DNA from: a phage
Assembly (NCBI GenBank): GCA_018580065.1
Contig: GCA_018580065.1_4845.1
Reading direction: 5' to 3' (one strand)
DNA: 46,716 nucleotides
The notes below the pieces were generated by a model that worked only from the letters and a program-made list of their open reading frames with translations, was not told the DNA's origin and searched no databases. Made by a program: the position numbers and the translations under genes. Each line of letters starts with the position of its first letter. The first letter of the stretch is position 1. Below are positions 3,205 to 34,994 of this stretch, one piece after another.

Positions 3205-3542
3205 GTCACCAGTGCGAAATCAGGTGGCTCAGCGCGATTGAACGTATTGCCATAATTAATCACATTCAGAATCTGATTTGCGCCAGCAACCAGCGGGTCA
3301 GCTTCTGTCACCGTGCCAATCATGATGTAGTCGCCAGTCTTAGCACCAACATACTCAGTCCAGAACGTATTCTTCTGCACAATCTCATTGCCTTTCGCAT
3401 CGGTAGATACATCATCGTTAAAACCATAATCGCACATGATGCTCACTGGCTCATCAAAAGTCGGCTTGCCGTACTTGTCGGTTCCGGTCTTGTGCCAGAT
3501 AGTGCATGGCTGCGTGTAAGAAAACCGAGAGATTGAGGTCAT
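3201..3542 (-). CDS. head-tail joining / head closure protein (by position)
   Basis: 113 aa ORF in connector operon. Confidence 0.35.
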   Translation of the reverse strand: MTSISRFSYTQPCTIWHKTGTDKYGKPTFDEPVSIMCDYGFNDDVSTDAKGNEIVQKNTFWTEYVGAKTGDYIMIGTVTEADPLVAGANQILNVINYGNTFNRAEPPDFALVT

Positions 3543-4150
3543 AAAACATTCCTATATGAACGATTTTTCTTGATGTGCTGGATAGCACCTTTAGACACGC
3601 CAAACTCATCAGCAAGTGATTGTGAGTGCTCTCCATTTGCTAGTCTGGTTCTCACCTCCCTAACCTGATCATCAGTTAATTTAGCGTGTTTTGGAGTCCT
3701 GCCGAACATTGGGTTTTTCTCGCCAATTCTTGATTGCGATATTTTCTTTCTTGTTTCTTCTGTTTTTGGACCCATAGAGCAAGGTGGTGTTTTCCCATAC
3801 CAGCAGTTATTCTTTCCCATCCTGCTTTTGCTCATTTTAGCTTTAGCCACATCTGTTGCCTGAACCCCCAAGCACGTACCAGCTATTTTTGCCACATTAT
3901 ATTGAGGACTTAGCTTGTCTATGTAGAATTGCTCTCTACTAAGCAGGATTGATTCATCGTTAACAATTTCAAGAATTGAAAATCTGAATAATGACTCGCC
4001 ATATTTTGCTCCATCATTATACAACCTGTGTGGGCTGTGCATGCCATTCCTCATTTTGTATCGATGCACAGCAATTCTATTGGTGTAGCTTATTGTTGAA
4101 CCAACATAAATCTCTTTAGTTATTGTATTTTCAATCTGATATACAGCCAT
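3539..4150 (-). CDS. GIY-YIG homing endonuclease (Seg/I-TevI-like)
   Basis: N-terminal VYQIEN...KEIYVGST (GIY...YIG) motif, NUMOD3-like repeats (KMSKSRMGKNN, ISQSRIGEKNPMFG), C-terminal HTH-like; ORF track begins 4168, MAVYQ start at 4150. Confidence 0.75.
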   Translation of the reverse strand: MAVYQIENTITKEIYVGSTISYTNRIAVHRYKMRNGMHSPHRLYNDGAKYGESLFRFSILEIVNDESILLSREQFYIDKLSPQYNVAKIAGTCLGVQATDVAKAKMSKSRMGKNNCWYGKTPPCSMGPKTEETRKKISQSRIGEKNPMFGRTPKHAKLTDDQVREVRTRLANGEHSQSLADEFGVSKGAIQHIKKNRSYRNVL

Positions 4151-4158
4151 CACTCTCT

Positions 4159-4551
4159 TCATTTGCACTTACTCCCACGAACAACCGCAAACCACGGTTT
4201 ACCGCTTCCGTCAGGGTCTTCCACTAAATCGCCAGTGCATCCGGCTGTATCCAGTAGCTTCATCTGATTGTACAGTGCCACCCACGGCTTGCTACCATAC
4301 GCGAATGATTGTGATGCGCCAGAAGGTGCGCTCTGCCTGGTGACGTAGCGCCCTGCGGTATTTGCGCTAATCAGGATGGAAGCCCACAGCATGATCGCAT
4401 TTTGTCGGCATTCATCATTTGGATAGTTCAGTTCAAGGCATTCGCTGATTGATGACACAAGGCACAGAATGCCAGACGCATCTGTCGTGGTGATGGTCAT
4501 CCCGCGCGACGCCATCTGACTGACCAGTTCTTCAGGTGTTGGTGCTGCCAT
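4159..4551 (-). CDS. hypothetical protein, possible head-tail connector component
   Basis: ORF track 142 aa from TTG; ATG at 4551 with GGGAG RBS. Confidence 0.35.
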   Translation of the reverse strand: MAAPTPEELVSQMASRGMTITTTDASGILCLVSSISECLELNYPNDECRQNAIMLWASILISANTAGRYVTRQSAPSGASQSFAYGSKPWVALYNQMKLLDTAGCTGDLVEDPDGSGKPWFAVVRGSKCK

Positions 4552-5455: not shown

Positions 5456-5484
5456 TTGACGTAGATTGATGGTGTGTTTATAGT
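5456..5484 (+). promoter_or_regulatory. sigma70-like promoter, TTGACG-17nt-TATAGT, with two copies of the GACGTAGA motif
   Basis: TTGACGTAGATT at 5456-5467, TATAGT 5479-5484, second motif copy GTGACGTAGAAA at 5487-5498. Confidence 0.6.
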
Positions 5485-5524
5485 TAGTGACGTAGAAACA
5501 ACAATAAATGTTAGAGGTGATGAA

Positions 5525-5785
5525 ATGTTTGATATTGATAACCCAAGTGATGACAAAGCCAAGCTGATTGATGCGGTCGCTTGCAGTTTCGCATCTTGCC
5601 AGACAGAAGGTGAATATCAGGTTGTGAAAATGTGCATTGTTGAGTTCTTCTCGGCAATCAACATTCCTGATGATGAGGCGGTTGATATTCTGCTGTGTGC
5701 CGCTGGGAGCTCCACTGAGGCGGACGAGTGCATTGATGAACTGGTTGAGGAGTTTGGCGGCATTTTCCAGGGTGATGAGGAGTAA
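5525..5785 (+). CDS. small highly acidic protein, candidate DNA-mimic anti-restriction protein
   Basis: 86 aa from ATG 5525 (RBS AGAGGTGA); very Asp/Glu-rich; first gene after an early-type promoter. Confidence 0.5.
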   Translation: MFDIDNPSDDKAKLIDAVACSFASCQTEGEYQVVKMCIVEFFSAINIPDDEAVDILLCAAGSSTEADECIDELVEEFGGIFQGDEE

Positions 5786-5787
5786 TC

Positions 5788-5979
5788 ATGGCAAACATGT
5801 ACTACTGTATGTTCCGCAATACCGTGATTGATTTTCGTGATTGCGTTGATGCAATTGGTAATGCTGAGTCTATTGACGAGTTCAGCAATTCAGAACACAA
5901 GTCTGCCGAGCGCCTGTACCATCTGGCTAATGAGTACGTCGCATATTACGAGCAATTGTTAGAAGAAAGTGGTGAATGA
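5788..5979 (+). CDS. hypothetical acidic protein
   Basis: ORF track 63 aa. Confidence 0.45.
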   Translation: MANMYYCMFRNTVIDFRDCVDAIGNAESIDEFSNSEHKSAERLYHLANEYVAYYEQLLEESGE

Positions 5980-5980
5980 T

Positions 5981-6790
5981 ATGAAAACACTAAGCAAAAT
6001 CTATTCAGACAAAGAAACACGCAACGGCATCGCTGTTAACAAAACCTATCTCGTGCCAGTGGAGCAAATCTATCTGGAGCCGGGATATAACATCCGTGAA
6101 GCAGATGAGCAGCATGTTGAATATTTTGCGCAGTGCTGGGAGTCCGGCCAGCCATTACCAGCATTAACAGTTATTCCAGACGAGAAGGGAATCCGCATTC
6201 TTGATGGTCAGCATCGCTATCTCGGCGCATTGCGTGCCATTGAGCGCGGAGCACCAATCGTTCGAATTGAGTGCAAGGATTTCACTGGCGACGAGGCGGA
6301 CAAAATCGCCTTCATGGTGTCATCAAGTCAGGGTAAGCAGCTTGACCCGTTTGAGCGCGCAAAGGCTTACACGCGACTGAAAGGCTTCGGCTGGACGAAT
6401 GAAGAAATCGCAAAAAAGGTAGGGCGCTCAGTATCTGACGTGCAAATGCATCTGTCTCTTGGTGATGTTCCGGCGGAAGTAAAAGCGCGAATCAGCGCCG
6501 GGCAAATCAGCTATGCAAATGCCGTAGCAGTAACTCGTGAGCATGGTGACGATGCGGTAAAGGTTATCGACGAGGCGGTCGAGGAAGCCAAAGCGCAAGG
6601 TAAGGATAAGGTCACTGCGAAGGTGCTGAAGTCGAAAAAGATTAAGCCAGTAGACCGTCTGATTGAGTTATTGAAGCCAGCAGACCACGTGATTCTTCCT
6701 GCTGGTCATGTGGTGGCAGAGGATGAGGAATTTATCCAGATTCCTGTTGCTGACATTCACGAGGTTATGGCAATTCTGGAGAAGATGTGA
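5981..6790 (+). CDS. ParB-like nuclease domain protein with C-terminal HTH
   Basis: ILDGQHRYLGALRA motif typical of ParB/Srx N-domain; RBS before ATG 5981. Confidence 0.65.
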   Translation: MKTLSKIYSDKETRNGIAVNKTYLVPVEQIYLEPGYNIREADEQHVEYFAQCWESGQPLPALTVIPDEKGIRILDGQHRYLGALRAIERGAPIVRIECKDFTGDEADKIAFMVSSSQGKQLDPFERAKAYTRLKGFGWTNEEIAKKVGRSVSDVQMHLSLGDVPAEVKARISAGQISYANAVAVTREHGDDAVKVIDEAVEEAKAQGKDKVTAKVLKSKKIKPVDRLIELLKPADHVILPAGHVVAEDEEFIQIPVADIHEVMAILEKM

Positions 6791-7281
6791 TGAACACAAC
6801 TAAAATAAATTGGGGTGATATTTTTCATTATGAAAATGGGGTGCTTAGGTGGAAGCACCAAAAAAGAAAAATGCTAAGTGGCTCTTTAGCTGGGACAATT
6901 GCAAATACAGGATATGTAATCATATGCGTTGATTACAAAAAATTCTTGGCTCACAGAATCATATGGGAGATGTTTAATGGACCAATCCCTGACGGGATGC
7001 AAATTGATCACATTAACCATATTCGTAATGATAACCGCATTGAAAACTTAAGGCTGGTAAGCCATATAGAGAACCATAGAAATCTTAGTAGGCAGAAAAA
7101 TAACAAATCAGGAAGAACTGGCGTTAGCTTTGACAGGAAGAGTGGGTTATGGAGGGCTTATGTATCAAAGATGCATATTGGTTTTTTTGCCAATAAAGAA
7201 GATGCAATATCCGCTAGAGAAAAAGCTGAAACTTCAACTGGGTATCACGAGAATCACGGAGTAAAAAGTGAACGTTTATGA
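6787..7281 (+). CDS. HNH homing endonuclease with AP2-like DNA-binding domain
   Basis: IDHINHIRNDNRIENLRLVSHIENHRN HNH motif; C-terminal GVSFDRKSGLWRAYV AP2-like segment. Confidence 0.8.
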   Translation: MMNTTKINWGDIFHYENGVLRWKHQKRKMLSGSLAGTIANTGYVIICVDYKKFLAHRIIWEMFNGPIPDGMQIDHINHIRNDNRIENLRLVSHIENHRNLSRQKNNKSGRTGVSFDRKSGLWRAYVSKMHIGFFANKEDAISAREKAETSTGYHENHGVKSERL

Positions 7282-7441
7282 TTTTCTCGTCAAGCAACTC
7301 CGCGCCAAGTTGCCTGACATTGACCAGATGGCAATTGATGCGGCGATTCAATATTACAAGCGCAATCAGAGCGCAAAGAAGGGTGGTATTTTTGAAGAAT
7401 GCCTGAAGGTTGCAAAACAGCACATGATTAAGGTGAAGTGA
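7268..7441 (+). CDS. hypothetical small protein (57 aa, GTG start)
   Basis: Fills gap between HNH and next gene; helical basic sequence; start uncertain. Confidence 0.25.
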   Translation: MNVYDFLVKQLRAKLPDIDQMAIDAAIQYYKRNQSAKKGGIFEECLKVAKQHMIKVK

Positions 7442-7977
7442 TGAAACTAAAAATCAGCAAATTATTACTTGAGTCAGCATTAATATTTCAGGCGCGAAAC
7501 GATGTTCGCTACTACCTGAATGGCATCTGCTTCATGCCTGATGGTCGTATTGTCTCAACTGACGGTCATCGCGCATTCATTGGTGGCAGCCATGACAACA
7601 AGCTGACAGAGAATGTGATTATCAAGATGGTAAAGTCGCCAACAAAGCGATATGAATACGCCATAATTGATACCAAGTCGAAAATTGCAACGTATCATGA
7701 TGAAGCTGGCGTGATGGTTGGTACTGGTATCTGCGAAGAGATTGATGGTCGATTCCCTGATATTGATCGCGTCATTCCTAAGCAGACCTTGCCAACAGAG
7801 GAAATTGGCTTCAATGCTGGTTACCTTGTGGATATCGAGAAAGTGGCGAAGCTGTTTAACCCTAAATTCTGTGGGGTTAAGTTTGAACTGAATGGAAACA
7901 CAAATGCCGCAGTTTGCTGTCTTATCGCGCCATCTGGCGAGGCGGCGAAGATTGTTGTTATGCCTATGCGTCTGTAG
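7438..7977 (+). CDS. DnaN (beta sliding clamp) domain-like protein
   Basis: VRYYLNGICF...STDGHRAF resembles the LNGV...ATDGHRLA clamp signature; single-domain size (179 aa). Confidence 0.4.
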   Translation: MMKLKISKLLLESALIFQARNDVRYYLNGICFMPDGRIVSTDGHRAFIGGSHDNKLTENVIIKMVKSPTKRYEYAIIDTKSKIATYHDEAGVMVGTGICEEIDGRFPDIDRVIPKQTLPTEEIGFNAGYLVDIEKVAKLFNPKFCGVKFELNGNTNAAVCCLIAPSGEAAKIVVMPMRL

Positions 7978-7982
7978 CAATA

Positions 7983-8010
7983 AAAAACCCGCATAATGCG
8001 GGTTTTGTTT
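7983..8010. terminator. bidirectional intrinsic terminator
   Basis: AACCCGC-ataat-GCGGGTT flanked by A-run and T-run. Confidence 0.7.
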
Positions 8011-8206
8011 ACTCTGCTTTCTTTTTCTTTGTCGTCTTTTGTTGTGGTGTTGCGACTTCGAAAGACTTTTCCAGTTCTGGCATGATGCGCAATTTTGGTA
8101 GCAGATGCTCGTCTGGTTCGGTAATCACTTCGCCAAGCTGCAACTCACGAATCTTGCCTTTCTCTTTAACAAAGATTCCGCGTGCGATGACTTCGTATTT
8201 GGCCAT
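8009..8206 (-). CDS. hypothetical protein
   Basis: ORF track 65 aa, lysine-rich C-terminus. Confidence 0.4.
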   Translation of the reverse strand: MAKYEVIARGIFVKEKGKIRELQLGEVITEPDEHLLPKLRIMPELEKSFEVATPQQKTTKKKKAE

Positions 8207-13767: not shown

Positions 13768-13814
13768 AATCTACGTCAATAAGTATTGACTATGTGACGT
13801 AGAAACGTCAAGAT
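13768..13814. promoter_or_regulatory. divergent promoter/operator region with inverted GACGTAGA motif pair
   Basis: AATCTACGTCAA (13768-13779) and TGACGTAGAAA (13795-13805) form a dyad; TTGACT -35 at 13786-13791. Confidence 0.45.
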
Positions 13815-16998: not shown

Positions 16999-17277
16999 AT
17001 GACAAAACGCGAATTACACCAATTATTTAACAAATGGCTTGATTCTGTTGGTTTTGGCGACATGAATGATAGAGAGAAGGACTTGCTTTGGTTTGGGTTT
17101 TCTGTTGGATATTGCCACGACAATAACAAGACCATGCTCGCAGCACTCCAGCAGCTTCTGGAAATCTACGACGACCATTCAGGAAAAGCCTGGACAACAT
17201 CAAGCAAGCGTCGTGCTCTGGATAATGCGCGCGATGCGGTTAATAAAGCGCTGGGGGAGCGCAATGAAACAATGTGA
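16999..17277 (+). CDS. hypothetical protein
   Basis: ORF track from GTG 16987; ATG at 16999. Confidence 0.45.
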   Translation: MTKRELHQLFNKWLDSVGFGDMNDREKDLLWFGFSVGYCHDNNKTMLAALQQLLEIYDDHSGKAWTTSSKRRALDNARDAVNKALGERNETM

Positions 17278-17749
17278 TCTTTTCCGTGTTCTTAGTTATA
17301 ACCCTGAATCTGGTGAATTCACGTGGATTAAATCAAGAAGACATGGGTTTAGCGGTCGAAAGGCTGGGTCGGTAAATGGGAAAGGGTACATACAGATCTG
17401 CATTGATGGAAAGCTTTATCTTGCGCACAGGCTTGCTCTTCTATACGTGACAGGAGAGATGCCAAAGGAGGTGGATCATATTAACAGGGTGAGAGATGAC
17501 AATAGATTATGCAACTTAAGGCCATGCACTTCATCTGAAAATAAGCACAACAAGGATATCACATCCAGAAACAAAACAGGGATGAAGGGCGTCAGCTGGT
17601 ATCCTGCCGGAAATTCATGGCGAGTAAGGATATGCGTAAATAAAACACAGATTCATCTGGGCTACTACGAAGACATTGAGCTGGCAGAGCTTGTGTCGCA
17701 AGAGGCGAGAATTAAATACGCAGGAGATTTTAATTATGAAGCTTATTGA
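17264..17749 (+). CDS. HNH homing endonuclease with AP2-like domain (second copy)
   Basis: VDHINRVRDDNRLCNLRPCTSSENKHN HNH motif; GVSWYPAGNSWRVRI AP2-like; paralogous to 6787..7281; ORF track begins upstream in-frame at 17066. Confidence 0.8.
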   Translation: MKQCDLFRVLSYNPESGEFTWIKSRRHGFSGRKAGSVNGKGYIQICIDGKLYLAHRLALLYVTGEMPKEVDHINRVRDDNRLCNLRPCTSSENKHNKDITSRNKTGMKGVSWYPAGNSWRVRICVNKTQIHLGYYEDIELAELVSQEARIKYAGDFNYEAY

Positions 17750-28820: not shown

Positions 28821-29243
28821 ATGAAAAGGTACTACATTGAGGCAATTGGGGCTGATGGTAAAAAGTTATATGCCAGCGGTAGATGTGGTTTTCTGCATGA
28901 TTTTACCTATGCGAAGTTTTTCAAAACAATAGAGGAGGCTGAGGGGTATATGGCGTGGCGGAAGCCTCATCTCCCATGTGAAATAAAATGCAAGGAGCAA
29001 AGGGTAAAAAAACGGTCTGCGTCTCAGGTGGAACAAAAAACGACAATGGAGGGAGAAGCTAGAAACTTCGTCTACCGCCTTGGTTTGGATAAGGGAAAGC
29101 ATTTTGTGTTTGATGATTTTAAGTTGATAAAGAGCATTGATCAGTTGAGAACTTCCCTTGACAGGGTGGGTAAGAAGCTGCAAAAAAAATTCAGTGTCAA
29201 TATGGTTGCGCGTAATACCGCTTATGTGGTGAGGGTTAAATGA
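28821..29243 (+). CDS. hypothetical protein
   Basis: ATG 28821 with GTGAGGTG RBS (ORF track from 28806). Confidence 0.45.
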   Translation: MKRYYIEAIGADGKKLYASGRCGFLHDFTYAKFFKTIEEAEGYMAWRKPHLPCEIKCKEQRVKKRSASQVEQKTTMEGEARNFVYRLGLDKGKHFVFDDFKLIKSIDQLRTSLDRVGKKLQKKFSVNMVARNTAYVVRVK

Positions 29244-31573
29244 TGATTGGTTATGAAGATTACCGCAAATGTGGCTTCCCTATTATTGGAATCCATGCGA
29301 TGGATATCGACCGAAATTGCACATGCGGTGATCCAGAGTGCAATGCTGCCGGTAAGCATCCGGTTATGAGCAACTGGCAGCTTGGAGTTATATGGGCTGA
29401 TGACCAGATTGAAAATATGGCTGAATATGGTCAGTTGCAGTCATTCGGTGTCCTTGTGAATGGTTATCTGGTCGTTGATATTGACCCACGCAACGGAGGT
29501 AATGATGGATATGAATCGCTTTGTGATGCCTTAGACGTAGAGCTTGCTGACGAAGCTGGTTTTACGGTCAAGACTGGTGGTGGTGGTCGCCACATCTATT
29601 ACAAACTTCCTGAAGGAATAAAGCTGCGCTCTCATGACAGAAGATTTAATGGTATTGACTTTAAATCATCTGGTTTTGTTGTTGGATGTGGTTCTTTTCA
29701 TAAAACTGGAAACTTTTATGAGGCCGAGCATGGATCCCCTTCAGAGATAACTGAATGTCCATCTGAACTTATTGAGCTTTTGTTGCGTCCTGAGAGAACG
29801 GAAGACGAGGTTTTCACGCTTGATAGTAAAAATTACAGCATTGCCGAAATGGAGGATATGCTCAAATACATCAAAGATGGTGATGAGTATGACCCATGGC
29901 TTCATGTAGGTATGGCTATCCACGAAGCTACAGAAGGCAATGGTTTTGAGCTTTGGGATAGATGGTCATCGCAGTTCAGCAAATACAGAGCTGAAGAGAT
30001 GGACGCAAAATGGCATTCCTTTGGAAAGGACGGCGTTAGCGAAAAGATAACAGAAGCAACGCTGGTTTATCTCGCGCAAGAGGGGGGGTGGGTAAGGCAA
30101 GTAACTTTTGAGGCTACGCCAGAGGAAATTGAGAAACTTGAGTCTTTCGAACGAGAGATGGCAATGGGTGTTGGTGAATGCCCTGTAGAGTACAAAAGTG
30201 TTGATGTCCGTTATCCGCCTGGATTTGTTGGTCGCCTTGCGGCGTGGATTAATAAGAACTGTGCAGAGAAGCGAGAGAATATTGCAGCACTTGCCGCATT
30301 GCATGCCGCATCCATGATTTGCGGTGCGTCATCTGATATTTACCTTACAAACAGGAAGGCTTTACCAAACCTTTTTGCTGTTGGTATCGCTGGTTCAGGT
30401 TCAGGTAAGGGTGATGTCCTTGCTGCGCTACAAAAGATAATTGATTGCTCAGGATTGAGTAAGACAGTTGCCGGTAAGATACGCTCAGAGCGTGCGATAT
30501 ATGAAGGTCTTTGCGCTAACCAGATGTTTAATATCATCATGGATGAGATTGGGATAAAACTTGGGAGTGTTGTTGGTCAGAAAGTAAGCGAGTACAACAT
30601 GGCAACCGCTGGTGCGATCATGGAGGCTTACACGTCAGAAGTTCTTTATTGTGACCAGCGGGTTACTGAGGATTTCATTAAGTCTTTTGAAAAAAGAAAG
30701 GCTATGCTGTTGATGGCTATTGAGGAAAATGAAATACAGGCAGACCCCGTTGACATTAAGTGTCAGTTTGATGATGTGATAAACAGAATTGACGGAGCTA
30801 TAAGGAATCCATTTTTTTCAATCTTTGGTGTATCTACTGATGATCAGTTTAAGCGCCTTATTACAGAAGAAAACATTAAGTCAGGCCTTATGGGTCGCGC
30901 AATGATTATGCAGGAGTTACAGGAGATTGCTGATGAAAACGAAAACGTAAACTACTGTGATCTACCTATGGATATGCAACTGACCATAAAAACAATAATA
31001 AATGGCGGAACGGCTGGGCACAAAAACTGGACAGACTCAATAATCAGTCAAAAAGAAAGACGGATTATAAAAGCCACGCCTGAAGTTTCTCAGCTCGCCA
31101 AGGAGTTCTTCTCATGGATTAAAACCGTTGCAAGAAAGCATGTAGAAAATGGTACTGGTTATCACCCATTGATAAACAGATGCGCCGTGAAGGTGGCAAA
31201 GATTGCTGGAATTCTCGCGTGCGATACTGGCGTCATAACCATGGAGCACTTGAGATATGCGGTAGCATTAACAATTAAATCAACAAGCGATCTGATGATG
31301 CGTGCCGACAGTATCGCCGGAGCGAAGTCTAAAGCTATGGAAGAGAGAATTGAAGGCATTTTCTCCATGGTTAAAGAATATGTGAAGCGAGGAATGACCA
31401 AAACAGCAATGGTTAGAGGGGTGGCAAAAGAAGGTGGTTATAAACGTGCTGATGTCGAGAGGTGCGTAGAGAAGTTGTTATCAGATGGTGTTATTTGCAT
31501 TGATGAAAATGCAAAAAGAACATCTCACAACGTAATAATTTACAAATTAACAAATGATGAGGTTGAGATATGA
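29240..31573 (+). CDS. bifunctional DNA primase-polymerase with helicase-like C-terminal domain
   Basis: Prim-pol motifs VVDIDPRNGG and GGGRHIYY, PriCT-like DPWLHVGMAIHEA, Walker A GIAGSGSGKG. Confidence 0.8.
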   Translation: MMIGYEDYRKCGFPIIGIHAMDIDRNCTCGDPECNAAGKHPVMSNWQLGVIWADDQIENMAEYGQLQSFGVLVNGYLVVDIDPRNGGNDGYESLCDALDVELADEAGFTVKTGGGGRHIYYKLPEGIKLRSHDRRFNGIDFKSSGFVVGCGSFHKTGNFYEAEHGSPSEITECPSELIELLLRPERTEDEVFTLDSKNYSIAEMEDMLKYIKDGDEYDPWLHVGMAIHEATEGNGFELWDRWSSQFSKYRAEEMDAKWHSFGKDGVSEKITEATLVYLAQEGGWVRQVTFEATPEEIEKLESFEREMAMGVGECPVEYKSVDVRYPPGFVGRLAAWINKNCAEKRENIAALAALHAASMICGASSDIYLTNRKALPNLFAVGIAGSGSGKGDVLAALQKIIDCSGLSKTVAGKIRSERAIYEGLCANQMFNIIMDEIGIKLGSVVGQKVSEYNMATAGAIMEAYTSEVLYCDQRVTEDFIKSFEKRKAMLLMAIEENEIQADPVDIKCQFDDVINRIDGAIRNPFFSIFGVSTDDQFKRLITEENIKSGLMGRAMIMQELQEIADENENVNYCDLPMDMQLTIKTIINGGTAGHKNWTDSIISQKERRIIKATPEVSQLAKEFFSWIKTVARKHVENGTGYHPLINRCAVKVAKIAGILACDTGVITMEHLRYAVALTIKSTSDLMMRADSIAGAKSKAMEERIEGIFSMVKEYVKRGMTKTAMVRGVAKEGGYKRADVERCVEKLLSDGVICIDENAKRTSHNVIIYKLTNDEVEI

Positions 31574-34007: not shown

Positions 34008-34455
34008 TGAACTGCTGGCGATGGAGGATATTCCACGGGAGCAGATTGAAGATACCATAAATCTTATTGAAGAGGAGTTTGAAGGAAAGGCTGAAATGGT
34101 TGCTGCTTACATTCGTGAGCTTGAAGCTGATGATGCCGGACTTAAGTCCGAGATTGACCGTCTTTCTGAGCGTAAGCGTGTTTTAGTTGCGAAGATTGAT
34201 AACCTTAAAGATTATCTTCGTCAAAACATGATGGCGTCAGGAAAGACAGATATCAAAGGTAAGTTGTTCAGTATCACTCTTGGCAAACCGTCACCAGTTC
34301 TTGATGTGTTTGTCCCTGTTGAGCAGCTTCCTGAGCAGTACCGGGTTGTGAAAGTGTCGGCAGATAACGCAGCAATTAAAAATGCGATAAAAGCCGGGAT
34401 TGAAATTAATGGTTGTGCCATCACCGACGGCAAACCAAAACTGATCATCAAATAA
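33976..34455 (+). CDS. Gp157-like protein (tentative)
   Basis: Coiled-coil N-terminus; adjacent to Sak4-like gene; ATG 33976 (ORF track from GTG 33961). Confidence 0.4.
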   Translation: MHLYEITKQLNELLAMEDIPREQIEDTINLIEEEFEGKAEMVAAYIRELEADDAGLKSEIDRLSERKRVLVAKIDNLKDYLRQNMMASGKTDIKGKLFSITLGKPSPVLDVFVPVEQLPEQYRVVKVSADNAAIKNAIKAGIEINGCAITDGKPKLIIK

Positions 34456-34472
34456 ATCGAGAGGACACAAAA

Positions 34473-34994
34473 ATGGGTTTCTGGAATCTTTCTGACGGTA
34501 AAGCTGTTGAGTCTAAATCTGAATTTGAACTGGGTGGTGGTTTCGAAGTAATTCCTGATGGCAGCCGTGTTCTTGCTGCCGTTGAAGAATGTAAAGACGA
34601 TCAGTGGGAAGGTGAGCGATTCTTCAATCTTAAGTGGCGAATCCTTGAGGGTGATTATAAAAATCGCATCATCTTCCAGAAGCTGAAAGTATTTAGCTCA
34701 AAAGAAAAGCAGCGCGACAATGCTATCACTATGCTTGCAGCAATTGACGCAAACGCCGGTGGCAAGCTGATGGCTTCAGGTAAAGAGCCGACTGATTTTG
34801 CTATTGCTAGTGCGCTTGCAAATCGCCCAATGATTCTTCTTCTTCGCGTTTGGGAGTCTGAGGATAAGCAAAAAACTGGTAACTATGTGGCTGGTGTTTT
34901 CAGTCGTCAACAGACAAAAGCATCACCTACTACTAAGCAATCAGCGCCGTCTAACGAGCCGCCGATGGACTTTGACTCTGACGTGCCGTTTTAA
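34473..34994 (+). CDS. putative ssDNA-binding protein with E. coli SSB-like C-terminal tip
   Basis: C-terminus SAPSNEPPMDFDSDVPF nearly identical to E. coli SSB tip PSNEPPMDFDDDIPF; N-terminal domain does not look like a canonical OB-fold SSB. Confidence 0.55.
   Translation: MGFWNLSDGKAVESKSEFELGGGFEVIPDGSRVLAAVEECKDDQWEGERFFNLKWRILEGDYKNRIIFQKLKVFSSKEKQRDNAITMLAAIDANAGGKLMASGKEPTDFAIASALANRPMILLLRVWESEDKQKTGNYVAGVFSRQQTKASPTTKQSAPSNEPPMDFDSDVPF

What the first reader, a model, noticed from the sequence alone, without database searches (positions are those of the whole stretch)
5456..7977. Plus-strand island inside the structural region: acidic protein, ParB-like nuclease, HNH endonuclease, beta-clamp-like protein
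A promoter with two motif copies drives an 86-aa protein extremely rich in Asp/Glu, which is the typical position and composition of DNA-mimic anti-restriction proteins such as Ocr. It is followed by a second acidic ORF, a ParB/Srx-fold protein, an HNH-AP2 endonuclease and a single-domain DnaN-like protein. The block looks like an early counter-defence or DNA-handling module inserted between capsid and connector genes.
Basis: inference. Interest (0 to 1): 0.6.

Follow-up and report, generated by a model that had tools for sequence, protein, structure and literature searches.

The report
Phage early operon with half-size clamp
This is a real, conserved, oppositely transcribed gene block in a Skatevirus-type Salmonella/E. 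coli phage; its acidic first protein shows no sign of being an Ocr-like restriction blocker, and the most interesting gene is an uncharacterised half-size copy of the bacterial DNA sliding clamp that keeps the clamp's protein-docking pocket.

Summary
All described ORFs exist at the stated coordinates. They form one plus-strand unit (promoter 5456-5484, bidirectional terminator 7984-8006) between minus-strand capsid and head-tail genes of a Skatevirus-like phage (about 92% identical to BS5 and DS8).

The Ocr reading is not supported. Protein A (86 aa, pI 4.05) is the most acidic ORF in the window, but it models as a generic four-helix bundle with no fold match to Ocr or ArdA. Phage Bas77 carries a 95%-identical orthologue and is still restricted by two type I, two type II and two type III systems.

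The "ParB-like nuclease" is an orphan ParB/KorB-type HTH protein whose GERR box reads GQHR. There is no ParA and no parS. The HNH gene is a low-GC mobile insert in a variable slot.

The "clamp-like" protein is DnaN domain II plus one half-domain. Sixteen of 17 mappable clamp-binding-pocket residues are identical to E. coli beta. It belongs to a large family of about 180-aa phage proteins, which RefSeq mislabels "RusA-like resolvase". Deposited genome-reduced seszw mutants show that it and the 57-aa gene are dispensable, while A and ParB are always retained.

Best reading: an accessory DNA-handling operon whose mini-clamp captures clamp-binding motifs. The mechanism is inferred.

The parts
5456..5484 (+). 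Sigma-70-type promoter TTGACG-17-TATAGT of the operon
   Evidence: 10 of 12 consensus matches. Conserved in BS5, Bas77 and seszw.
5457..5465 (+). First TGACGTAGA motif copy, overlapping the -35 hexamer
   Evidence: The window holds 8 exact copies against 0.22 expected.
5488..5496 (+). Second TGACGTAGA copy, just downstream of the -10 hexamer. Possible operator or promoter-class signature.
   Evidence: The context GTGACGTAGAAAC is identical at 13795. Invariant in three relatives while the spacer bases vary.
5525..5785 (+). Gene A: 86-aa acidic four-helix protein (phrog_14587, labelled 'anti-restriction protein' without evidence)
   Evidence: pI 4.05 and net charge -19. SD sequence GAGGTGA lies upstream of the ATG. 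AF2 pLDDT 84 with four helices. No specific fold match. Lineage-restricted. Retained in all 70 seszw-lineage genomes.
5788..5979 (+). Gene B: 63-aa acidic protein (phrog_8760, unknown function). Variable between relatives: no ORF is annotated in this position in seszw.
5981..6790 (+). Orphan ParB/KorB-type DNA-binding protein, 269 aa. Divergent N-terminal ParB/Srx domain (box II reads DGQHRY), then a ParB HTH.
   Evidence: Pfam HTH_ParB 44 bits and KorB 26 bits. phrog_1033, E 5e-91. Spo0J 1vz0, E 6.5e-13, and M. xanthus ParB. 100% identical to seszw gp18. No ParA, no ParA-binding motif and no parS.
6790..7281 (+). HNH (HNH_3) homing endonuclease with a weak AP2-like C-terminal region. A mobile insert in the variable slot between ParB and E.
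   Evidence: Pfam HNH_3 78.5 bits. AP2 15.3 bits, below cutoff. PADLOC 'homing endonuclease'. GC 36.8% against 45.9% for the genome. Absent from most relatives. The slot holds a DNA methyltransferase in Bas77 and a 25-aa ORF in seszw.
7268..7441 (+). Gene E: 57-aa basic protein (phrog_4439, unknown function). Experimentally dispensable in seszw.
   Evidence: Deleted in most deposited seszw mutants.
7441..7977 (+). Mini-clamp: 178-aa DnaN paralogue, made of domain II plus one beta-alpha-beta-beta-beta unit, with an intact clamp-binding-motif pocket
   Evidence: phmmer against PDB beta clamps, E 2e-13, query 7-153 = DnaN 136-288 and query 120-178 = DnaN 315-366. hhalign probability 98.2. Family HMM. 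16 of 17 pocket residues identical. Large family of proteins of about 170-210 aa. Deleted in about 23 viable seszw mutants.
7984..8006 (.). Bidirectional intrinsic terminator shared with the convergent minus-strand 65-aa gene (8009-8206)
   Evidence: 10-bp stem with 5 GC pairs and T runs on both strands.

Best explanation
**Overall.** The block is a conserved accessory operon of Skatevirus phages. Host sigma-70 RNA polymerase most likely transcribes it from a phage promoter of the TTGACGTAGA class, in the direction opposite to the late structural genes. Its products handle DNA or the host replisome rather than block restriction.

**Shown.**
- The gene content and homologies.
- Conservation of the promoter and the terminator.
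- The HNH gene is a mobile homing-endonuclease insert.
- The 178-aa protein is a beta-clamp (DnaN) derivative. It lacks domain I and half of domain III, but keeps essentially every residue of the cleft that binds clamp-binding motifs (CBMs).
- The mini-clamp and gene E can be deleted from a close relative without loss of viability. A and the ParB-like gene are never lost.

**Inferred.**
- The mini-clamp cannot form the canonical head-to-tail beta2 ring. It acts as a soluble, or self-paired, CBM receptor.
- As such, it would capture host CBM-bearing proteins such as Pol III alpha, epsilon and delta, Hda, MutS/L or the translesion polymerases. It would work either as a decoy that diverts them from the host clamp or as an adaptor that brings them to phage DNA.
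- The orphan ParB/KorB-like protein binds phage DNA as an NTP-gated or NTP-independent DNA-binding switch. It may organise or mark phage DNA, or repress the TGACGTAGA promoters.
- Protein A is an acidic early protein that engages a host or phage DNA-binding protein other than the tested restriction enzymes.
For: **Operon anatomy.**. The promoter and motif are conserved.

**Mini-clamp homology.**
- E 2e-13 to solved beta clamps, aligned over DnaN 136-288. The C-terminal unit also aligns to DnaN 315-366, including the VVMPMRL terminus.
- The review PMC11139829 lists the pocket residues. Sixteen of the 17 mappable ones are identical here. L177->A45 is the only change.
- Across 134 representatives of about 165-215 aa (one per 50%-identity cluster), pocket positions average 0.75 conservation against 0.41 overall. 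Eleven of the 25 most conserved positions are pocket residues.
- The family is large: about 135-140 of the best 150 representatives (50%-identity clusters) are 165-215 aa long.

**Genomic context in other phages.**
- In Serratia phage Eta the order is SSB, ParB-like, mini-clamp, helicase.
- In Pseudomonas phage TC7 a ParB-like gene lies upstream and a Dcm methyltransferase downstream.
- In Skarpretter and in Vibrio X29 and XM1 the gene sits beside Dam methyltransferase, an ASCH-domain protein and SSB.

**Accessory status.** Among seszw-lineage GenBank records, 47 carry the mini-clamp and 70 carry A and ParB. Clone seszw_300L.2 lacks both E and the mini-clamp.

**ParB-like protein.** Real homology to Spo0J, M. 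xanthus ParB and KorB. Published precedents show phage ParB-like proteins acting in DNA modification or regulation rather than segregation (PMC12704722 and PMC13229309).

**Host dependence.** The window encodes no recognised replicative DNA polymerase. It has only a Prim-Pol/PriCT-2 protein, helicase, Sak4, Gam and SSB. The SSB ends in DFDSDVPF, which resembles the E. coli SSB tip.
Against: - No binding data exist, and no usable structure was obtained for the mini-clamp. AF2 on a shallow alignment gave pLDDT 41.
- The pocket motifs are also the most conserved parts of DnaN in general, so part of their conservation may be a detection bias.
- No CBM was found in any phage replication or neighbouring protein. 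That leaves only host ligands, and these are untested.
- The mini-clamp is dispensable in the laboratory host. It also occurs in Dhillonvirus, which has its own DNA polymerase I. It is therefore not a required Pol III recruiter.
- A decoy for Pol III partners could harm a phage that may depend on Pol III.
- No binding site for the ParB-like protein was identified.
- The timing of expression was not measured.
Confidence: 0.4

Rival explanations
1. Protein A is an Ocr-type DNA mimic that blocks type I restriction (or BREX) immediately after injection, and the block as a whole is a counter-defence module.
For: - A is the first gene after a strong promoter.
- It has pI 4.05 and net charge -19, and is the most acidic ORF in the window.
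- PHROG names the family 'anti-restriction protein'.
- DNA mimics share no common fold, so the lack of fold similarity is not decisive.
Against: - Bas77 has a 95%-identical A. It is restricted 12-25-fold by EcoKI at one site, about 1000-fold by EcoCFT_I at two sites, and 1e5- to 1e7-fold by type II and III systems. The authors describe the Skatevirus phages as 'markedly sensitive to RM systems'.
- There is no homology or fold match to Ocr or ArdA.
- A is retained in all 70 seszw-lineage genomes, including those reduced by about 20% and passaged on a single host, where anti-restriction would be useless.
- The PHROG label has no experimental source that I could find.
- BREX, other type I families and other defences were not tested.
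Confidence: 0.12
2. The mini-clamp is a genuine sliding clamp. Its three beta-alpha-beta-beta-beta units per chain assemble into a closed 12-unit ring, for example as a tetramer or as pairs joined through the half-domain. The ring would tether host Pol III, the phage Prim-Pol or a phage DNA methyltransferase to DNA. This would resemble the 26-kDa beta* product of E. coli dnaN.
For: - The start of the protein coincides with DnaN residue ~130-136. From my own knowledge, the internal beta* product begins close to this point.
- 3 units x 4 chains equals the 12 units of beta2 or PCNA3.
- The hydrophobic pair aligned with the dimer-interface residues I272/L273 is kept as L138/F139.
- The gene often neighbours SSB, helicase or DNA methyltransferase genes.
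Against: - Domain I, which forms half of the beta2 interface, is absent.
- The second inner helix of domain II appears missing or shortened (query 64-72). This rests on alignment and a low-confidence secondary structure only.
- No clamp loader is encoded.
- The gene is dispensable.
- Oligomeric state could not be predicted with the tools available.
Confidence: 0.15
3. The ParB-like protein is a KorB-style global repressor of the TGACGTAGA promoter family, including its own. The operon would then be mainly a timing switch that shuts early transcription before late genes are expressed from the opposite strand. This does not exclude the best explanation.
For: - The Pfam KorB domain is hit above cutoff (26.3 against 22.3 bits), and so is the ParB HTH.
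- The 9-mer is 36-fold over-represented and sits at about five to six promoter-like sites, usually twice.
- The second copy at 5488 lies just downstream of the -10 hexamer, where a repressor would block, and is invariant among relatives.
- ParB is never lost in seszw mutants. It shows only in-frame 15-aa deletions, which are typical of CRISPR escape in a needed gene.
Against: - The first copy is simply the -35 hexamer plus four bases.
- In three promoters the second copy contains the -10 (TAGAAT or TAGATT), so the motif may be promoter sequence and not an operator.
- The motif is not palindromic, unlike the KorB and ParB sites.
- There is no evidence of binding.
- Other candidate regulators in the genome were not examined.
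Confidence: 0.2
4. The block is a passive moron cluster with no coordinated function: unrelated genes that accumulated at a permissive site between two late transcription units.
For: - The HNH gene is clearly selfish.
- B, E and the slot content vary between relatives.
- The mini-clamp occurs alone as an antisense gene inside late operons of unrelated phages.
- The mini-clamp and E are dispensable.
Against: - A, ParB, E and the mini-clamp are syntenic at 90-93% identity across most of the 195 matching phage records.
- The ParB and mini-clamp pairing recurs in the distant phages Eta and TC7.
- The genes overlap or abut, which suggests translational coupling.
- A and ParB are never lost under strong genome-reduction pressure.
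Confidence: 0.13

Closest known systems
Bacterial beta sliding clamp DnaN, and its internal 26-kDa product beta* (own knowledge: Skaliter and Paz-Elizur et al., 1996)
   Same: - Clear homology to DnaN 136-288 and 315-366.
- The clamp-binding-motif cleft is kept at 16 of 17 mappable residues: R152, L155, T172, G174, H175, R176, P242, R246, V247, N320, Y323, V360 and M362-R365.
- The protein starts almost where beta* starts.
   Different: - 178 aa instead of 366 (or about 230 for beta*).
- Domain I is absent.
- Domain III is reduced to one beta-alpha-beta-beta-beta unit whose sequence resembles both halves of domain III.
- The canonical head-to-tail dimer interface cannot form.
- Phage-encoded and dispensable.
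- It falls below the NCBIfam dnaN and Pfam cutoffs.
T7 Ocr (gp0.3) and other DNA-mimic anti-restriction proteins (ArdA)
   Same: - First gene of an early-type unit.
- Small, very acidic (pI about 4) and helical.
   Different: - No sequence or fold similarity.
- 86 aa, with a compact four-helix model.
- A phage carrying the orthologue is restricted by both type I systems tested.
Chromosomal ParB/Spo0J, plasmid KorB and orphan phage ParB-like proteins (PMC12704722, PMC13229309)
   Same: - N-terminal ParB/Srx-type domain followed by a ParB HTH.
- Orphan: no ParA, as in many mobile-element ParB-like proteins.
- A DNA methyltransferase occupies the neighbouring slot in Bas77. This echoes the ParB-methyltransferase associations described for phages.
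   Different: - Box II reads GQHR instead of GERR, so the catalytic Glu and one Arg are changed.
- Pfam ParBc is not reached, and TIGR00180 is below cutoff.
- No parS and no ParA-binding motif.
- Not fused to an enzyme.
- Function untested.
HNH (HNH_3)-AP2 phage homing endonucleases
   Same: - Strong HNH_3 match and phrog_99.
- Sporadic presence among near-identical genomes.
- Low GC.
- Inserted exactly between two conserved genes.
   Different: - The AP2 DNA-binding part is only weakly recognisable.
- The target site and cleavage activity are unknown.
Phage strategies that exploit the host clamp or mimic Pol III subunits: Mu MuC and T4 gp45 in late transcription (PMC12867686); P1 Hot, a theta homologue (own knowledge)
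   Same: A phage gene product built around the clamp and clamp-binding-motif interaction, or copied from a Pol III accessory subunit.
   Different: MuC carries CBMs and binds the host clamp. Here the phage encodes the pocket side of the interaction instead. No link to transcription has been shown.

Membership tests
Ocr-type DNA-mimic anti-restriction protein | Strongly acidic small protein encoded first in an early transcription unit | tested here: met
   pI 4.05 and net charge -19. Most acidic of 187 ORFs. First ORF after the promoter.
Ocr-type DNA-mimic anti-restriction protein | Sequence or fold homology to Ocr or ArdA | tested here: not met
Ocr-type DNA-mimic anti-restriction protein | Protects the phage from type I restriction-modification | tested here: not met
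   By proxy, from published data. Bas77 (A 82/86 identical) plates at EOP 0.04-0.08 on EcoKI and 0.0006-0.001 on EcoCFT_I.
Ocr-type DNA-mimic anti-restriction protein | Dimer surface with a B-DNA-like array of carboxylates | not testable with these tools
   Only a monomer model without accessible coordinates.
ParB/Spo0J CTP-dependent partition protein | N-terminal ParB/Srx domain plus ParB HTH domain | tested here: met
   Spo0J 1vz0, E 6.5e-13, over residues 40-202. M. xanthus ParB, E 1e-9. Pfam HTH_ParB 44 bits.
ParB/Spo0J CTP-dependent partition protein | Box II GERRxR arginine patch for CTP binding and hydrolysis | tested here: not met
   The aligned motif is DGQHRY (E->Q, R->H); only the last Arg is kept. 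TIGR00180 scores 38.9 bits against a cutoff of 58.45.
ParB/Spo0J CTP-dependent partition protein | Partner ParA and an N-terminal ParA-binding motif | tested here: not met
   No KGGxGK[ST] deviant Walker A in any of the six frames, and no [LFI]G[KR]G[LFI] in the protein.
ParB/Spo0J CTP-dependent partition protein | Cognate parS sites | tested here: not met
   Canonical parS gives one 3-mismatch hit against 2.0 expected. There is no recurrent palindrome. A non-canonical site cannot be excluded.
KorB-type transcriptional repressor | KorB DNA-binding domain | tested here: met
   Pfam PF08535, 26.3 bits against a cutoff of 22.3. PDB KorB 8qa8, E 0.0028.
KorB-type transcriptional repressor | Binds operators at regulated promoters | not testable with these tools
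   TGACGTAGA is a candidate site only by position.
Beta sliding clamp (DnaN) | Three homologous domains (about 366 aa) forming a head-to-tail dimeric ring | tested here: not met
   178 aa. The protein aligns only to DnaN 136-303 and 313-366. Domain I and half of domain III are absent. TIGR00663 scores 32 bits against a cutoff of 137.65.
Beta sliding clamp (DnaN) | Conserved hydrophobic cleft that binds clamp-binding motifs | tested here: met
   16 of 17 mappable pocket residues are identical. Conservation across the family is 0.75 against 0.41 overall. This is at sequence level only.
Beta sliding clamp (DnaN) | Encircles DNA and confers processivity | not testable with these tools
   The AF2 monomer model failed (pLDDT 41). 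No multimer prediction was available.
RusA Holliday-junction resolvase (the PHROG and RefSeq label for this gene) | Homology to RusA | tested here: not met
   The only significant hits are to DnaN and processivity factors: Pfam DNA_pol3_beta_2, phrog_947 at E 1e-11, and PDB beta clamps. The label is an annotation error.
HNH homing endonuclease | HNH catalytic motif | tested here: met
   PF13392 HNH_3, 78.5 bits. phrog_99, E 2e-59.
HNH homing endonuclease | Sporadic, insertion-like distribution with deviant composition | tested here: met
   Only 15 of 195 matching records reach 80% coverage of the block, and the listed near-full (93-100%) matches carrying the HNH are BS5, DS8 and PHA46_2. Most listed relatives cover about 80%. 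GC is 36.8% against 45.9%.
HNH homing endonuclease | AP2 DNA-binding domain | tested here: inconclusive
   PF00847, 15.3 bits, E 0.025, below the cutoff of 33.3. A paralogous seszw gene is annotated 'AP2 domain protein'.

The most novel reading that the evidence does not exclude
The 178-aa protein represents a large, unstudied family of phage 'mini-clamps'. These are beta-clamp derivatives reduced to the clamp-binding-motif pocket. They are not rings. Two half-domains may pair across a true two-fold axis to rebuild a domain III, which would give a three-domain arc with one pocket on each face. Such proteins would act as sponges or adaptors for host proteins that dock on the sliding clamp. That would be a new way for viruses to rewire the bacterial replisome and repair hub from the receptor side of the interaction.
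Probability: 0.3. Interest if true: 0.75.

Novelty: new variant of a known kind. Interest (0 to 1): 0.45.

Why it matters
**Why the mini-clamp could matter.**
- The beta clamp is the central docking hub of bacterial replication and repair, and it is an antibiotic target.
- Known phage strategies attack it or borrow it from the ligand side, using clamp-binding peptides or proteins such as MuC.
- A widespread phage protein family that copies only the docking pocket would be the converse strategy. It could act as a natural, genetically encoded competitor for every clamp partner.
- It would also give a minimal soluble scaffold of the pocket for biochemistry and inhibitor work.

**Annotation errors exposed.** Two propagated labels should not be used to infer phage biology or therapeutic-phage safety:
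- 'RusA-like Holliday junction resolvase' for the mini-clamp.
- 'Anti-restriction protein' for the acidic protein A.

**If the mini-clamp turns out to be inert.** The block is then an ordinary accessory operon with a homing endonuclease in it.

Tried and rejected
1. **AF2 of the mini-clamp.** A 25-sequence alignment, all at least 70% identical, gave pLDDT 41. The diverse family found later could not be folded.
3. **Binding sites for the ParB-like protein.** A canonical parS search and a palindrome search found nothing.
4. **Clamp-binding motifs in phage proteins.** I searched the island proteins, the replication proteins and the neighbours of mini-clamps in five other phages. The only hit was QMHLSL, inside the structured ParB HTH, which I judged irrelevant.
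5. **'Mini-clamp compensates for the lack of a phage DNA polymerase'.** Rejected as a general rule. Dhillonvirus TheodorHerzl has both a mini-clamp and DNA polymerase I. The seszw mutants show that the gene is dispensable.
6. **PADLOC scan of all six proteins.** Only the HNH matched, as a homing endonuclease.
7. **Supplementary tables of the CiPGr paper.** These are not held. I inferred dispensability from the deposited mutant genomes instead.
8. **Literature searches** for truncated or phage DnaN, clamp decoys and Skatevirus gene functions found no functional study.
9. **The RusA label.** Rejected.

Full report
**Identity of the window and the observation.**
The window is a Skatevirus-type siphophage genome. 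The 2.65-kb region matches Salmonella phage BS5 and Shigella phage DS8 at about 92% over its full length. It matches 195 phage records in all, and the RefSeq taxonomy of BS5 is Skatevirus.

Six co-oriented, abutting or overlapping plus-strand ORFs lie between a sigma-70-type promoter and a bidirectional terminator:
- Promoter: TTGACG-17-TATAGT at 5456-5484.
- Terminator: 10-bp stem at 7984-8006.

Both flanks are minus-strand morphogenesis genes. To the left are Neck1/tail completion, phrog_797, a GIY-YIG endonuclease, phrog_786, a membrane protein and a lipoprotein. To the right are phrog_2138, the major capsid protein, the decoration protein and phrog_760. GC skew changes sign over the block. 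The description is therefore correct.

**The promoter motif.**
The 'two motif copies' are exact TGACGTAGA 9-mers at 5457 and 5488.
- The window contains 8 exact copies, against 0.22 expected and a maximum of 2 in 300 simulations.
- Nearly all of them sit in pairs just upstream of ORF starts, at 139, 5457/5488, 13770/13795, 16555/16584, 23609/23626 and 27945/27962.
- The first copy supplies the -35 hexamer (TTGACG).
- In three promoters the second copy contains the -10 hexamer (TAGAAT or TAGATT).
- At 5488 and 13795 the second copy lies just downstream of the -10 hexamer, in an identical 13-mer (GTGACGTAGAAAC).
- The promoter and both copies are invariant in BS5, Bas77 and seszw, while bases between them vary.

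This is a phage promoter class. Whether the second copy is also an operator is open.

**Protein A: the acidic protein.**

*Properties.*
- A is 86 aa, with pI 4.05, 25.6% Asp+Glu and net charge -19.
- A and B are the two most acidic of 187 ORFs in the window.
- The family is tiny and lineage-restricted: 13 clusters, all at least 70% identical.
- It has no Pfam or NCBIfam match.
- PHROG calls it 'anti-restriction protein'. The only literature use of that label I found is an automatic annotation table.

*Structure.*
- AF2 gives a confident four-helix bundle (pLDDT 84).
- Foldseek against viral models returns its own orthologues, plus one 74-aa Skatevirus protein with the same fold.

*Experimental evidence against an Ocr-like role.* The BASEL phage Bas77 carries an A protein identical at 82 of 86 residues. 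Its published efficiencies of plating are (PMC11990801 S1 data):

| System | Efficiency of plating | Note |
|---|---|---|
| EcoKI | 0.04-0.08 | one site |
| EcoCFT_I | 0.0006-0.001 | two sites |
| EcoRI | about 3e-5 | |
| EcoRV | 1e-7 to 5e-7 | |
| EcoCFT_II | about 1e-6 | |
| EcoPI | about 1e-5 | |

The authors call these phages 'markedly sensitive to RM systems'. An Ocr-like blocker of type I enzymes is therefore not supported for the systems tested.

*Retention.* A is present in all 70 seszw-lineage genomes in GenBank, including genome-reduced mutants. That is not what one expects of a dispensable anti-restriction gene passaged on one host. What A binds is unknown. An acidic early protein that targets some other DNA-binding protein remains the most economical guess.

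**The ParB-like protein.**

*Homology.*
- It matches Pfam HTH_ParB (44 bits) and KorB (26 bits, above cutoff), and phrog_1033.
- It aligns over both the N-terminal ParB/Srx domain and the HTH to T. thermophilus Spo0J (E 6.5e-13) and M. xanthus ParB.

*Departures from canonical ParB.*
- The box II motif GERRxR reads DGQHRY, so the hydrolysis Glu and one phosphate-binding Arg are replaced.
- Pfam ParBc and TIGR00180 are not reached.
- There is no ParA anywhere in six frames, no ParA-binding motif, no canonical parS and no recurrent palindrome.

It is thus an orphan, divergent ParB/KorB-type DNA-binding protein. Nothing indicates that it is a nuclease.

*Precedents and evidence on importance.*
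- Recent work shows that such orphan phage ParB-fold proteins are common, bind various NTPs, and are often coupled to DNA-modifying enzymes (PMC12704722, PMC13229309).
- In Bas77 the slot directly after the ParB gene holds a DNA methyltransferase.
- The window protein is 100% identical to seszw gp18.
- Three deposited seszw mutants carry in-frame 15-aa deletions (residues 55-69 or 159-173) rather than the designed 100-bp or whole-gene deletions.
- The gene is present in all 70 records.
- I read this as CRISPR escape in a gene the phage needs. That reading is an inference.

**The HNH gene.**
- It has a strong HNH_3 and phrog_99 match and a weak AP2-like C-terminus.
- Its GC is 36.8% against 45.9% for the genome.
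- The gene is absent from most relatives, which cover about 80% of the block.
- The slot between ParB and E contains a 25-aa ORF in seszw, a methyltransferase in Bas77 and the HNH gene here.

It is a mobile homing endonuclease. It is one of three in this genome, with a GIY-YIG gene at 3539-4168 and a second HNH at 17066-17749. It is not a functional part of the module.

**The clamp-like protein.** This is the most interesting element.

*Homology.*
- phmmer against PDB sequences gives E 2e-13 to beta clamps. Residues 7-153 align to E. coli DnaN 136-288, and residues 120-178 also align to DnaN 315-366, including the C-terminal VVMPMRL.
- hhalign gives 98.2% probability.
- A family HMM reproduces both alignments.

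*Architecture.* The protein equals domain II plus one beta-alpha-beta-beta-beta unit. That unit resembles both halves of domain III. Domain I is missing.

*The pocket.* Using the pocket residue list in the review PMC11139829, 16 of 17 mappable residues are identical to E. coli beta:
- R23 = R152
- L26 = L155
- T40 = T172
- G42 = G174
- H43 = H175
- R44 = R176
- P106 = P242
- R110 = R246
- V111 = V247
- N125 = N320
- Y128 = Y323
- V172 = V360
- M174 through R177 = M362 through R365
- The only change is L177 -> A45.

*The family.*
- An exhaustive profile search found 513 representatives at E <= 1e-10. About 135-140 of the best 150 are 165-215 aa long, and a full-length DnaN first appears at E 6e-16.
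- Across 134 such diverse short proteins, pocket positions are conserved 0.75 on average, against 0.41 overall.
- The family occurs in 298 phage records from Salmonella, Escherichia, Vibrio, Klebsiella, Pseudomonas, Burkholderia and others. It is annotated variously as 'DNA polymerase III beta subunit', 'fragment' or, wrongly, 'RusA-like Holliday junction resolvase'.
- I found no functional study.

**Context and dispensability of the mini-clamp.**

*Gene neighbourhoods in other phages.*
- Serratia phage Eta: SSB, ParB-like, mini-clamp, helicase.
- Pseudomonas TC7: a ParB-like gene upstream and a Dcm methyltransferase downstream.
- Skarpretter and Vibrio X29 and XM1: next to Dam methyltransferase, an ASCH protein and SSB.
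- Dhillonvirus, Bcep781, Proteus Isfahan and Shewanella 1/41: a lone antisense gene inside the late structural operon, as in this window.

*Relation to replication.*
- The window encodes no recognised replicative polymerase. It has only a Prim-Pol/PriCT-2/DUF3987 protein, an SF2 helicase, Sak4, a Gam-like protein and an SSB whose tip DFDSDVPF resembles the E. coli SSB tail.
- Dhillonvirus has both a mini-clamp and DNA polymerase I. The gene is therefore not tied to polymerase-less phages.

*Dispensability.*
- Among deposited genomes of the CiPGr genome-reduction experiment on seszw (PMC9825161), the mini-clamp is present in 47 records, against 70 for A and ParB.
- Clone seszw_300L.2 lacks both E and the mini-clamp.
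- The mini-clamp is therefore an accessory gene on the laboratory host.

**Mechanistic reading.**

*Shown.* This is a phage-encoded DnaN derivative that keeps the CBM cleft and has lost the parts needed for the canonical ring.

*Inferred.*
- It binds clamp-binding motifs of host proteins. No CBM was found in phage proteins.
- It acts as a decoy or adaptor.

*Structural speculation.* A single half-domain cannot complete its beta-sheets alone. A plausible solution is pairing of two half-domains across a true dyad to rebuild a domain III. This would also explain why that unit resembles both halves of domain III. A four-chain, 12-unit ring is the alternative. Neither could be tested, because the one AF2 attempt used too shallow an alignment (pLDDT 41) and no multimer tool was available.

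**Verdict.**
- The headline interpretation (an Ocr-like anti-restriction protein) is not supported.
- 'DNA-handling early module' is reasonable.
- The genes are already present and annotated in many public genomes, so the block itself is not new.
- The mini-clamp family is a new, uncharacterised variant of a well-known protein, with a testable and potentially interesting mechanism.
- Interest is moderate.

Noticed in passing
window 139, 5457/5488, 13770/13795, 16555/16584, 23609/23626, 27945/27962: A family of promoter-like sites is built on TTGACGTAGA (-35). Each has a second TGAYGTAGA copy that either contains the -10 (TAGAAT or TAGATT) or lies just downstream of it. There are 8 exact 9-mers against 0.22 expected. 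The site at 13770/13795 is a divergent pair.
   Followed up: partly
window 3539-4168 (-): A GIY-YIG / NUMOD3 homing endonuclease (GC 39.4%) sits among the head-tail joining genes. BS5 and seszw instead carry an HNH/AP2 gene on the opposite strand at a nearby position.
   Followed up: partly
window 17066-17749 (+): A second HNH endonuclease of the same PHROG (phrog_99) as the one in the island. This phage therefore carries at least three homing-endonuclease genes.
   Followed up: no
window 34413-34994 (+): The phage SSB (phrog_9002, Pfam DUF669) ends in DFDSDVPF. This closely resembles the E. coli SSB C-terminal tip, which recruits host replisome and repair proteins.
   Followed up: no
window 29240-31573 (+): A 777-aa Prim-Pol + PriCT-2 + DUF3987 protein. 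Apart from it, the window encodes no recognisable DNA polymerase, so it is unclear who elongates phage DNA.
   Followed up: partly
L004 3992-4510, L006 3998-4579, L009 3498-3995, L011 3504-4052: In four unrelated phages (Dhillonvirus TheodorHerzl, Bcep781, Proteus Isfahan, Shewanella 1/41) the mini-clamp gene is a solitary antisense gene embedded in the late structural operon. This is the same odd placement as in this window.
   Followed up: partly
RefSeq records NC_054646, NC_054650, NC_031918 and others; phrog_3007: The mini-clamp is systematically labelled 'RusA-like Holliday junction resolvase' in RefSeq and Pharokka annotations. Every significant similarity is to DnaN. This is a propagated annotation error.
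   Followed up: yes
L015 4242-4330 (seszw), equivalent to the window slot 6790-7281: In seszw the slot between ParB and gene E holds a 25-aa ORF (MTPIEKICCPRHGGSGTKSTCPYCK) with a Cys-rich zinc-ribbon-like pattern. In Bas77 the slot holds a DNA methyltransferase.
   Followed up: no
BFVD A0A411BGY7 (Salmonella phage SeSz-2, 74 aa): A second small Skatevirus protein has the same predicted four-helix fold as protein A (TM 0.76/0.87) at only 21% identity. It may be a divergent paralogue.
   Followed up: no
P0289 and P0291 (seszw mutants MZ375305, MZ375307; MZ375333 is inferred from its matching coverage pattern to carry one of these variants): Genome-reduced seszw clones carry undesigned in-frame 45-nt deletions in the ParB-like gene, at residues 55-69 or 159-173. 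This suggests Cas9 escape under selection to keep the reading frame.
   Followed up: partly
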